Source: Escherichia coli (lineage in GTDB: Bacteria; Pseudomonadota; Gammaproteobacteria; Enterobacterales; Enterobacteriaceae). Taken from it: a DNA stretch of 64,000 nucleotides. The stretch lies in NCBI RefSeq assembly GCF_045037415.1, contig NZ_CP173438.1; one strand, written 5' to 3'. The stretch's first letter is position 1. Every line of letters starts with the position of its first letter. The position numbers were made by a program. Shown piece by piece: positions 48,042 through 51,000 of this stretch.

Positions 48042-51000
48042 TAATTACACGTTAATTAGTTTTGAATTGAAAAGGGCGCTTCGGCGCCCTTTTTGCATTT
48101 GTTGACTGCATATCTTATTCGTACTGTCAGAACGAATAACTTATTCATATTTAAAATATCAATTCAATTTAATATTTTAAATATGAATGTTTCTGTTTTA
48201 AAAATGCTTCATTTGTCAGGCTTTTTTCTTATTTTTAATGCCGCACTTTAATTCATATTGAAGGGTTCTCGTAAAACGTAAATAATTCCTGCGTAGGACT
48301 TTTGTTTTGCAGTTTTTACGTTACAAGGGATTATAATGAAATTAAATATATTTACTAAATCTATGATTGGTATGGGGCTGGTGTGTTCCTCTCTGCCAGC
48401 ATTGGCAATGGAAGCATGGAATAATCAACAAGGTGGTAATAAATATCAGGTTATTTTCGATGGCAAAATTTATGAAAATGCCTGGTGGGTTTCTTCTACA
48501 AATTGCCCGGGAAAAGCGAAAGCAAATGATGCAACTAACCCGTGGCGTTTAAAGCGTACCGCAACAGCTGCTGAAATTAGTCAGTTTGGCAATACACTTT
48601 CCTGCGAAAAGAGCGGAAGCTCATCTTCTTCAACTTCAAATACGCCAGCATCTAATACGCCCGCTAATGGCGGTTCGGCTACACCAGCACAGGGCACTGT
48701 TCCGTCTAATTCTTCTGTAGTTGCCTGGAATAAACAGCAGGGCGGTCAAACCTGGTATGTCGTCTTTAATGGTGCGGTATATAAAAATGCCTGGTGGGTA
48801 GCCTCTTCTAACTGCCCGGGTGATGCGAAAGGCAATGATGCCAGCAACCCATGGCGTTATGTTCGTGCCGCTACGGCAACGGAAATCTCAGAAACCAGTA
48901 ATCCACAGTCTTGTACTTCAGCACCACAGCCTGCACCGGATGTGAAACCGGCACCGGACGTTAAACCGGCCCCTGATGTTCAGCCAGCCCCAGCTGATAA
49001 GTCAAACGACAACTATGCTGTTGTAGCCTGGAAAGGTCAGGAAGGTTCTTCTACATGGTACGTTATCTACAACGGCAGCATTTATAAGAACGCCTGGTGG
49101 GTAGGCGCGGCAAATTGCCCAGGCGATGCGAAAGAAAACGATGCCAGCAACCCATGGCGTTATGTTCGCGCGGCAACGGCAACAGAAATCACTCAGTATG
49201 GTAACCCAGGCTCCTGTTCCGTTAAGCCGGATAATAATGGCGGTGCTGTGACTCCGGTTGATCCAACTCCGGAAACACCGGAAACTCCAGTTACTCCAAC
49301 TCCGGATAACAACGAGCCATCAACACCAGCGGATAGCAGTAACGATTACTCACTGCAGGCGTGGAGTGGCCAGGAAGGCAGCGAAATTTACCATGTTATC
49401 TTCAATGGTAATGTTTATCAGAATGCCTGGTGGGTTGGTTCTGAAGATTGCCCGCGTGGCACCAGTGTAGAAAACTCCAATAACCCATGGCGTCTCGTGC
49501 GTACAGCTACCGCTGCGGAAATGAGTCAGTACGGTAACCCGACTACCTGTGAAATTGATAATGGCGGCGTCATTATTGTGGATGGTTTCCAGGCCAGCAA
49601 AGCGTATAGCGCGAACAGCATCGTAGATTATAACGATGCACATTATAAAACCTCTGTCGATCAAGACGCATGGGGCTTTGTCCCCGGCGGCGATAACCCG
49701 TGGAAGAAATACGAACCGGCGAAAGCATGGTCCGCTTCCACCGTGTACGTGAAAGGTGATCGCGTTGTTGTTGATGGGCAGGCTTATGAAGCGCTGTTCT
49801 GGACGCAAAGTGACAACCCTGCTCTGGTTGCGAACCAAAACGCCACCGGTAGCAATAGTCGCCCGTGGAAGCCGTTAGGTAAGACTCAGAGCTATAGCAA
49901 CGAAGAGCTGAATAATGCGCCGCAGTTTAATCCAGAAACGCTTTATGCCAGTGATACGCTGATTCGCTTTAACGGTGAGAACTACATTTCTCAGAGTAAA
50001 GTGCAGAAAGTTTCTCCTTCTGACAGCAACCCGTGGCGTGTCTTTGTTGACTGGACCGGAACCAAAGAGCGCGTAGGTACGCCGAAGAAAGCGTGGCCGA
50101 AACACGTTTATGCACCGTATGTCGACTTTACGCTGAATACGATCCCGGATCTGGCTGCGCTGGCTAAGAATCATAACGTCAACCACTTCACGCTGGCGTT
50201 TGTGGTGAGTAAAGATGCGAACACCTGTCTGCCGACATGGGGGACCGCTTACGGTATGCAGAATTACGCTCAGTACAGCAAAATCAAAGCGCTGCGTGAG
50301 GCTGGCGGTGATGTGATGCTGTCTATCGGTGGTGCTAATAATGCCCCGCTGGCAGCTTCCTGTAAGAACGTTGACGATCTAATGCAGCATTATTATGACA
50401 TCGTTGATAACCTGAACCTCAGAGTCCTGGACTTCGATATCGAAGGCACCTGGGTTGCGGATCAGGCATCTATTGAACGTCGTAACCTTGCTGTGAAGAA
50501 AGTGCAGGATAAATGGAAGTCAGAAGGCAAAGATATTGCTATCTGGTATACCTTGCCAATTCTGCCGACAGGCCTGACGCCGGAAGGGATGAATGTCCTG
50601 AGCGATGCCAAAGCGAAAGGTGTTGAGCTGGCGGGTGTGAACGTGATGACAATGGACTACGGTAACGCTATTTGTCAGTCTGCAAACACCGAAGGCCAAA
50701 ACATCCACGGTAAGTGTGCAACGTCTGCGATTGCCAACCTGCATGCGCAGCTGAAAGGCCTCTATGGCAATAAGAGTGATGCAGAAATTGACGCCATGAT
50801 GGGTACCACGCCGATGGTTGGCGTGAACGACGTTCAGGGTGAGGTGTTCTATCTCTCTGATGCTCGTCTGGTCATGCAGGATGCGCAGAAGCGTAATCTC
50901 GGTATGGTTGGTATCTGGTCAATCGCGCGCGACCTGCCGGGCGGCACTAACCTGTCTCCGGAATTCCACGGTCTGACTAAAGAACAGGCTCCGAAGTACG

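What the first reader, a model, noticed from the sequence alone, without database searches (positions are those of the whole stretch)
48400..49560. Four-fold repeated carbohydrate-binding module architecture in chiA, with a short tandem-repeat linker
The N-terminal half of ChiA contains four paralogous modules of about 100 aa (AWNNQQGGNKYQVIFDGKIYENAWWV..., AWNKQQGGQTWYVVFNGAVYKNAWWV..., AWKGQEGSSTWYVIYNGSIYKNAWWV..., AWSGQEGSEIYHVIFNGNVYQNAWWV...) separated by Ser/Thr/Pro linkers, one encoded by three tandem 18-bp repeats (48933-48986). Such repeats are recombination-prone, and module or linker copy number may vary between strains; this ORF is 900 aa against the 897 aa I recall for K-12.
Basis: seen in the sequence. 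Interest (0 to 1): 0.25.

Follow-up and report, generated by a model that had tools for sequence, protein, structure and literature searches.

The report
Repeated binding modules in E. coli ChiA
The E. coli chitinase gene chiA does begin with four copies of a small sugar-binding-type module joined by repetitive linkers, and linker repeat number (and rarely module number) differs between strains; the module architecture is already known and the length variants are minor.

Summary
chiA (48336-51038, +, 900 aa) encodes a signal peptide and four gapless paralogous modules of about 68 aa (47-69% identical, pairwise BLASTP E 2e-28 to 6e-42). They are joined by 33-43 aa Ser/Thr/Pro linkers. Three CBM5/12-type domains and a GH18 catalytic domain follow.

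Linker 2 holds three in-frame 18-bp (Q/K)PAPDV units. The 900 vs 897 aa difference from K-12 comes from a different repeat, one extra 9-bp TPE unit in linker 3.

Copy number does vary. Among 5426 complete E. coli genomes:
- 18-bp unit: x2 in 29, x4 in 17, x3 in the rest.
- TPE unit: x1 in 1955, x2 in 1115, x3 in 1.
- One genome has only three modules, from an in-register 303-nt deletion between modules 2 and 3. The same fusion occurs on at least four haplotypes in draft assemblies and in Shigella. No five-module allele was found.

Pfam CBM_5_12 does not detect the four modules. They form a rare family whose only solved relative is the N-terminal domain of Yersinia entomophaga toxin chitinase Chi2. 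Fold comparison puts their beta-core in CBM5/12.

The allele carries the LF82 "pathogenic" residues. The literature already describes seven chitin-binding domains in ChiA, so interest is low.

The parts
48336..51038 (+). chiA coding sequence, 900 aa, LF82/ST131-type allele
   Evidence: ORF list. 100% identical over the N-terminal 1265 nt to many complete genomes annotated 'chiA: bifunctional chitinase/lysozyme', including O25b:H4-ST131. Same tuf-chiA-bfd-bfr-gspO order as K-12.
48336..48407 (+). Predicted Sec signal peptide (aa 1-24, ...SLPALA|MEAW)
   Evidence: Inferred from sequence features only (basic N-region, hydrophobic core, A-L-A); not run through a predictor. Homologues all begin the first module 1-2 residues after an A-x-A motif.
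48411..48614 (+). Module 1 (aa 26-93)
   Evidence: Alignment A1; positional orthologue clade in the NJ tree.
48615..48719 (+). Linker 1 (aa 94-128), Ser/Thr/Pro-rich; contains two 15-bp SNTPA units at 48636-48665
   Evidence: Sequence. An allele with a third SN(A/T)PA unit exists (P0022, 804 aa).
48720..48923 (+). Module 2 (aa 129-196)
   Evidence: Closest paralogue of module 3 (69% aa identity).
48837..48865 (+). 29-nt stretch identical, in register, to 49140-49168 in module 3; crossover site of the three-module alleles
   Evidence: Longest exact match between modules. It explains the second megablast 'place' per genome. The deletion endpoints in ETEC1746 fall inside it.
48924..49022 (+). Linker 2 (aa 197-229) with three 18-bp (Q/K)PAPDV units at 48927-48980 and a degenerate fourth at 48981-48998
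   Evidence: TRF; in-frame units. Copy number x2 in 29 and x4 in 17 complete genomes.
49023..49226 (+). Module 3 (aa 230-297)
49227..49355 (+). Linker 3 (aa 298-340) with two 9-bp TPE units at 49266-49283; the second unit is what makes this allele 900 rather than 897 aa
   Evidence: TRF period 9; alignment to K-12. x2 in 1115, x1 in 1955 and x3 in 1 complete genome.
49356..49559 (+). Module 4 (aa 341-408), orthologue of the single module of other Enterobacterales; carries Q362, E370, V378, V388
   Evidence: NJ tree; differences from K-12; LF82 residues listed in PMC6393329. AlphaFold2 model pLDDT 92.3.
49587..49706 (+). Domain 5 (aa 418-457), weak CBM5/12 match
   Evidence: Pfam CBM_5_12 E=0.0011, below the gathering score. 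hhalign to domain 6 gives 96.6% probability.
49725..49880 (+). Domain 6 (aa 464-515), clear CBM5/12
   Evidence: Pfam CBM_5_12 E=5.5e-10, 39.6 bits. PDB 2d49 chitinase C chitin-binding domain E=5.6e-4.
49926..50042 (+). Domain 7 (aa 531-569), CBM5/12-like; carries E548
   Evidence: No Pfam hit, but hhalign to domain 6 gives 92.5% probability. Position 548 is called 'domain 7' in PMC11486038.
50094..51029 (+). GH18 catalytic domain (aa 587-898), D699-x-D701-x-E703 motif
   Evidence: Pfam Glyco_hydro_18. PDB 9buf_A E=1e-47 and 2dsk_A E=2e-37. Motif read from the translation.

Best explanation
This is the ordinary chromosomal chiA gene of E. coli, in the allele shared with ST131 and LF82. It encodes a secreted GH18 chitinase/lysozyme whose catalytic domain is preceded by seven small binding domains strung on flexible Ser/Thr/Pro linkers.

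The first four domains are an old tandem array of one module type. Each has a CBM5/12-like three-stranded beta core bearing the conserved aromatic motif (A-W ... V-I-F-N-G-x-V-Y-x-N-A-W-W-V ... N-P-W-R). A C-terminal helix is pinned to the core by a conserved cysteine pair. Module 4 is the ancestral copy: other Enterobacterales have only that one. Modules 2 and 3 are the youngest pair.

Inferred function: the array gives multivalent, long-reach binding to GlcNAc-containing polymers such as chitin, mucin glycans and N-glycosylated CHI3L1, holding the enzyme on its substrate.

The length polymorphism arises in two ways. Slipped-strand or unequal exchange within the short in-frame linker repeats (18-bp PAPDV(K/Q), 9-bp TPE, 15-bp SNTPA) adds or removes whole units. 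Rarely, exchange at the 20-29-nt identical stretch shared by modules 2 and 3 removes exactly 303 nt. That leaves an intact hybrid module and a three-module protein.
For: Shown:
- Gene identity and synteny.
- Four modules.
- GH18 and CBM5/12 domains.
- The four-sequence module profile reaches true Pfam CBM_5_12 domains in P0158 and P0159 at whole-library E=3e-4 and 6e-4.
- The cysteine pair is all-or-none across the family: 51 sequences have both, 3 have neither.
- Positional orthology of the modules.
- Alleles: 897 aa K-12, 900 aa window, 894 aa (x2), 903 aa (x4), 796/799 aa (three modules).
- Genome counts.
- The three-module allele sits at the same locus on 24 contigs read. These include a 5.0-Mb contig and a metagenome-assembly contig named k141_30974. 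It occurs on four module-4 haplotypes.

From the literature: seven chitin-binding domains, with polymorphic positions 362/370/378/388 in domain 4 and 548 in domain 7. The LF82-type protein binds CHI3L1 about 4-fold and mucin about 5-fold better (PMC11486038; PMC6393329).
Against: No Pfam or NCBIfam model recognises the four modules. Profile-profile probability against ChiA's own CBM5/12 domains is only 19-76%. The one structurally characterised homologue, Chi2-NTD, is described as a protein-docking domain, not a sugar binder (PMC12705794). No binding data exist for modules 1-3 alone. The published effects come from five substitutions tested together. The slippage and recombination mechanisms are inferred from junction sequences, not observed.
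Confidence: 0.8

Rival explanations
1. The four modules are protein-protein docking or adhesin domains like Chi2-NTD of the Yersinia entomophaga Tc toxin. They would tether ChiA to a bacterial or host protein rather than to a glycan.
For: The only solved homologue is Chi2 residues 24-93 (E=3e-25, TM 0.80). Chi2 is anchored to YenA1 through its N-terminal domain (PMC12705794). ChiA is reported to bind the host protein CHI3L1.
Against: In Chi2 the interface is made mainly by a long beta-strand that precedes the compact domain. ChiA has no such extension: module 1 starts two residues after the predicted signal-peptide cleavage site. CHI3L1 binding is reported to involve its N-glycosylated part. 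The conserved exposed aromatic motif and the CBM5/12 fold matches fit sugar binding.
Confidence: 0.12
2. The modules and linkers act mainly as an inert spacer or as a recognition region for the Gsp type II secretion system. Copy number would then be selectively neutral.
For: Three- and four-module alleles and linkers with 2-4 units all persist. Other genera manage with a single module. chiA lies next to the gsp operon.
Against: There is strong residue conservation within each positional module clade across proteins that are 71-76% identical overall. Published binding differences map to module 4.
Confidence: 0.06
3. The length variants are assembly or sequencing artefacts caused by the internal repeats.
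For: Most 799-aa proteins come from short-read draft assemblies on contigs of about 41 kb. Only one of 5426 complete genomes has the deletion junction. Some variants (P0050 791 aa, P0065 771 aa) are seen in a single Logan contig only.
Against: The shared exact identity is only 20-29 nt, which is short for an assembler to collapse (my own judgement; no assembler was tested). The junction is present in a complete genome (ETEC1746), a 5.0-Mb contig, a metagenome-assembly contig and 24 contigs read, and in Shigella (142 contigs). The x2 and x4 linker alleles are gapless matches in 29 and 17 complete genomes and were verified by translation. The 41-kb contigs are simply the tufA-bounded chromosomal piece.
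Confidence: 0.02

Closest known systems
E. coli ChiA (YheB) of K-12 and of the adherent-invasive strain LF82
   Same: Same gene, locus and architecture. 96.5% nt identity to K-12. Carries the LF82 residues Q362, E370, V378, V388 and E548. The literature already counts seven chitin-binding domains, the fourth being module 4.
   Different: Differs from K-12 by 22 substitutions and one 9-bp TPE unit. Published position numbers (362 and so on) follow the 900-aa numbering; the K-12 residues are 359, 367, 375, 385 and 545.
N-terminal domain of Chi2, the chitinase subunit of the Yersinia entomophaga YenTc toxin (PDB 6ogd/9c4k chain C)
   Same: Same module family: HMM E=3e-25 over residues 24-93, 44% identity and TM 0.80 to the model. 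It also sits at the N-terminus of a GH18 enzyme.
   Different: Chi2 has a single copy, lacks both cysteines, has a preceding docking strand, and is described as a protein anchor. ChiA has four secreted, cysteine-bearing copies with no such strand.
CBM5/12 chitin-binding domains (e.g. Streptomyces griseus ChiC, PDB 2d49; Serratia marcescens ChiB)
   Different: Not detected by the Pfam CBM_5_12 model. Has an extra C-terminal helix of about 20 aa and a cysteine pair. The family is very small: 48 clusters at 50% identity among 1.84 billion representatives.

Membership tests
E. coli chiA orthologue | Located between tufA and bfd-bfr-gspO, with high nucleotide identity to K-12 chiA | tested here: met
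   ORFs in the window. K-12 and ST131 annotation show the same gene order. 96.5% nt identity to K-12 chiA.
E. coli chiA orthologue | GH18 catalytic domain with the DxDxE motif | tested here: met
   Pfam PF00704 40.8 bits. PDB GH18 chitinases E=1e-47. D699-F-D701-I-E703 read from the translation.
LF82-type ('pathogenic') ChiA allele | Q362, E370, V378, V388, E548 | tested here: met
   All five residues are present, where K-12 has K, K, A, E, V. The residue list comes from PMC6393329.
CBM5/12 (Pfam PF02839), for the four N-terminal modules | Match to the family HMM at or above the gathering score | tested here: not met
   No hit at E<=10 for the four modules or for any of 54 family members. The model does hit domain 6 (39.6 bits) and, weakly, domain 5.
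CBM5/12, for the four N-terminal modules | Small three-stranded beta fold superimposable on solved chitin-binding domains | tested here: met
CBM5/12, for the four N-terminal modules | Detectable remote sequence homology | tested here: inconclusive
   hhalign probability is 19, 54 and 76% against ChiA domains 5, 6 and 7. The module profile hits true CBM_5_12 regions of P0158 and P0159 at whole-library E=3e-4 and 6e-4.
CBM5/12, for the four N-terminal modules | Binds chitin or other GlcNAc polymers through exposed aromatic residues | not testable with these tools
   Aromatic positions W5, Y23, W27, W28 and W47 of the module are conserved. Binding is reported only for whole ChiA.
Chi2-NTD-like module | Sequence and fold match to Chi2 residues 24-93 | tested here: met
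   E=1.8e-17 with 4 sequences and 3.1e-25 with 54 sequences. Foldseek E=2.6e-5, TM 0.80.
Chi2-NTD-like module | Preceding N-terminal beta-strand that docks into a TcA chitinase-binding domain | tested here: not met
   In ChiA, module 1 begins at residue 26, two residues after the predicted signal-peptide cleavage. No Tc toxin genes lie nearby; the neighbours are tufA, bfd, bfr and gsp.

The most novel reading that the evidence does not exclude
The four N-terminal 'chitin-binding domains' of E. coli ChiA are not generic CBM5/12 domains. They would be members of a rare offshoot that no Pfam model covers: a CBM5/12 core plus a helix held by a likely disulfide, found in only about 50 protein clusters and shared with the docking domain of Tc-toxin chitinases. 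The tandem array, with its copy-number and linker-length polymorphism, would tune avidity for host glycoproteins (mucin, CHI3L1) rather than for chitin, making it effectively an adhesin arm.
Probability: 0.25. Interest if true: 0.4.

Novelty: already known. Interest (0 to 1): 0.18.

Why it matters
ChiA is studied as a colonisation factor of Crohn's-disease-associated E. coli, and alleles are typed by only five substitutions.

This check shows three practical points:
- The published position numbers follow the 900-aa form and are shifted by 3 relative to K-12, because of the TPE unit.
- Alleles also differ in linker length (2-4 PAPDV units, 1-3 TPE units) and occasionally lack a whole module. 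Substitution-based typing ignores this.
- Standard domain models miss the four modules, so automated annotation under-reports the binding domains.

None of this changes the accepted view of the gene.

Tried and rejected
- NCBIfam gave no family for ChiA.
- Pfam found nothing for the four modules, singly or across 54 relatives.
- Sequence-profile search of the PDB with 54 modules found only Chi2 plus noise such as parkin and formate dehydrogenase.
- I first suspected that the many 799-aa proteins on contigs of about 41 kb came from a plasmid or phage. This was rejected: the contigs start inside tufA and carry bfd-bfr-gsp, so they are the chromosomal piece.
- I considered assembly collapse as the source of three-module alleles. 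This was rejected on the evidence of the complete-genome, 5-Mb-contig and metagenome-assembly occurrences.
- A five-module allele (the reciprocal M3-M2 junction) was searched for and not found.
- Low et al. 2013 (PMC3755095) is not held in the library, so its content is cited second-hand from PMC11486038 and PMC6393329.
- Two literature searches for domain-level descriptions of E. coli ChiA gave nothing further.
- 18-bp alleles with x1 or x5 copies, and linker-1 variants in complete genomes, were not searched.

Full report
**Observation**

The window carries an ORF at 48336-51038 (+) of 900 aa. Its N-terminal 1265 nt are 100% identical to chiA ("bifunctional chitinase/lysozyme") of many complete E. 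coli genomes, including O25b:H4-ST131. The gene order fusA-tufA-chiA-bfd-bfr-gspO is that of K-12 and ST131.

After a predicted signal peptide (aa 1-24, inferred from sequence) there are four gapless paralogous modules. They lie at aa 26-93, 129-196, 230-297 and 341-408, with 25 invariant columns. Identity is 47-69% at protein level and 59-69% at DNA level, and third-codon-position identity is only 37-49%. Pairwise BLASTP E-values are 2e-28 to 6e-42.

The repeat period is 101-111 aa, but the folded unit is about 65-68 aa. The rest is Ser/Thr/Pro linker of 33-43 aa. Tandem Repeats Finder confirms a period-18 array at 48933-48979 and also a period-9 array at 49265-49285. In frame, the 18-bp units encode QPAPDV, KPAPDV, KPAPDV and a degenerate QPAPAD.

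**Rest of the protein**

Pfam finds CBM_5_12 at aa 464-497 (39.6 bits when domain 6 is scanned on its own) and weakly at about 418-446. It finds Glyco_hydro_18 at 612-808. PDB GH18 chitinases align to aa 587-898 (E=1e-47), and the DxDxE motif is D699-F-D701-I-E703.

A third CBM5/12-like unit (aa 531-569) is not seen by Pfam, but it matches domain 6 by hhalign at 92.5% probability. ChiA therefore has 4+3 small domains. This agrees with the "seven chitin-binding domains" of the literature, where positions 362/370/378/388 are assigned to domain 4 and position 548 to domain 7 (PMC11486038).

**What the four modules are**

Pfam gives no CBM_5_12 match at E<=10 for the four modules or for any of 54 diverse family members, and NCBIfam gives nothing.

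A profile of the four modules, searched against 1.84 billion representatives, finds only 48 clusters at E<=1e-3. They fall into two groups:
- ChiA-type GH18 enzymes of Enterobacterales and relatives.
- Tc-toxin-type GH18 chitinases.

The only solved relative is Chi2 of the Yersinia entomophaga YenTc toxin, residues 24-93 (E=1.8e-17 with 4 sequences, 3.1e-25 with 54).

At sequence level the link is weak but present:
- hhalign probability is 19, 54 and 76% against ChiA's own domains 5, 6 and 7, always aligning V-I-F-N-G-x-V-Y ... N-P-W.
- The four-sequence profile reaches regions of P0158 and P0159 at whole-library E=3e-4 and 6e-4. Pfam calls those regions CBM_5_12.

I conclude that the modules are a divergent CBM5/12 offshoot with an added C-terminal helix. 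The two cysteines are all-or-none across the family: 51 sequences have both and 3 have neither, the latter being Tc-toxin-type proteins. This fits a disulfide in the secreted forms, which is an inference.

**Evolution of the array**

A neighbour-joining tree shows positional orthology. All last modules cluster together with the single module of Citrobacter, Enterobacter and other genera. All first modules cluster together. Modules 2 and 3 are sister clades. Relatives have 1, 3 or 4 modules. The array is therefore old, and module 4 is the ancestral copy.

**Variation between strains**

K-12 ChiA is 897 aa. The alignment shows 22 substitutions and one 3-aa gap. The gap is one TPE unit of linker 3 (window 49281-49289), not the 18-bp array.

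I searched 5426 complete E. coli genomes, of which 3160 carry the chiA N-terminal region. I used short synthetic-allele queries with E-value limits strict enough that a gapped or half match fails. Results:

| Feature | Copy number | Complete genomes |
|---|---|---|
| TPE unit (linker 3) | x2 | 1115 |
| TPE unit (linker 3) | x1 | 1955 |
| TPE unit (linker 3) | x3 | 1 |
| 18-bp unit (linker 2) | x2 | 29 |
| 18-bp unit (linker 2) | x4 | 17 |
| Module 2 x module 3 deletion junction | three modules | 1 |
| Reciprocal duplication junction | five modules | 0 |

The remaining chiA-carrying genomes are taken to have three 18-bp units. Translation confirmed 903 aa for strain cq9 (x4), 894 aa for P0001 (x2) and 796 aa for ETEC1746 (three modules).

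In ETEC1746 exactly 303 nt are missing, in register. The endpoints lie inside the identical stretch AACCCATGGCGTTATGTTCG. In the window allele that identity is 29 nt, at 48837-48865 and 49140-49168.

The protein database holds about 60 distinct three-module E. coli and Shigella sequences with the same M2/M3 hybrid. They sit on four module-4 haplotypes: QEVVM, QEAVM, KKAEL and KKTVL. One of them (P0014) was found on 24 contigs read at the same locus, including a 5.0-Mb contig and a metagenome-assembly contig. A linker-1 allele with a third SN(A/T)PA unit also exists (P0022).

**Mechanism**

What is shown is the junction sequences, the in-frame unit gains and losses, and the intact hybrid module. 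What is inferred is the process: slipped-strand or unequal exchange in the linker repeats, and short-homology recombination between modules 2 and 3.

Function is inferred from three things: the fold, the conserved aromatic residues (W5, Y23, W27, W28 and W47 of the module) and published work. That work reports that whole ChiA binds CHI3L1 and mucin. The LF82-type allele, which this window carries (Q362, E370, V378, V388, E548), binds about 4- and 5-fold better.

The rival reading is that the modules are protein-docking domains like Chi2-NTD. It is weakened because Chi2 docks mainly through a strand that precedes the domain, and ChiA lacks that strand.

**Novelty**

The gene, its seven binding domains and the K-12/LF82 polymorphism are all published. 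Three things were not seen in the papers I could read: the relationship to Chi2-NTD, the failure of standard CBM models on the four modules, and the catalogue of length alleles. These are small additions to a known picture.

**Limits**

- Low et al. 2013 could not be read.
- CAZy, CDD and SMART models were not available.
- Genome counts depend on E-value thresholds I chose, checked by translation in five alleles.
- Variants seen only in single Logan contigs (P0050, P0065) are unverified.

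Noticed in passing
window 51978-52650 (- strand), deletion between 52323 and 52324: gspO, the prepilin peptidase of the Gsp type II secretion system next to chiA, is frameshifted. One TGGCT unit of a TGGCT-TGGCT repeat is lost (a 5-nt deletion at gspO nt 328-332), which splits the gene into ORFs of 113 and 133 aa. The same sequence is in 381 complete genomes, including ST131, and RefSeq marks it 'frameshifted'. This may bear on how this lineage exports ChiA.
   Followed up: partly
chiA CDS nt 900-1200 (window about 49236-49535): Differences from K-12 are concentrated in linker 3 and module 4: 32 differing alignment positions in 300 nt (9 of them the TPE gap), against 1-10 per 150 nt elsewhere in the gene. 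This suggests a recombined or selected segment around the 'pathogenic' residues.
   Followed up: no
P0088: A UniProt entry named 'Endochitinase 11, Metarhizium anisopliae' (522 aa) is 86% identical to the C-terminal 57% of E. coli ChiA. It looks like a bacterial sequence filed under a fungus.
   Followed up: no
E. coli genome hits H1, H59, H60; L004; P0070: chiA is often damaged or absent. 2266 of 5426 complete genomes have no N-terminal match. One has an IS1 insertion, one retains only the first 61 nt, strain MB51 is frameshifted, and Shigella alleles are truncated at 701 aa.
   Followed up: partly
In one genome the chiA-gspO region lies on a record classed as a plasmid (2 places, 1 place each). 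This is possibly a mis-assigned replicon.
   Followed up: no
P0153 aa 668-799: An M60 enhancin-like peptidase (Pfam PF13402; a family I recall includes mucin-degrading enzymes) ends in two copies of a module-like domain (…NGRIYTNKWWV…PGD…). The ChiA module profile detects them (E about 1e-6 locally), but Pfam CBM_5_12 does not.
   Followed up: no
window 44639-46225 (-) and 46716-47954 (-): Long mechanical ORFs (528 and 412 aa) run antisense to fusA and tufA. I take them to be artefacts of the strong codon bias of those genes, not genes.
   Followed up: no
P0116 (243 aa): A small protein consists of three tandem copies of the module and nothing else (no catalytic domain). The W-W motif is replaced (NKNLV, NASPV, NISRV), so the module also exists as a free-standing array of unknown role.
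   Followed up: no
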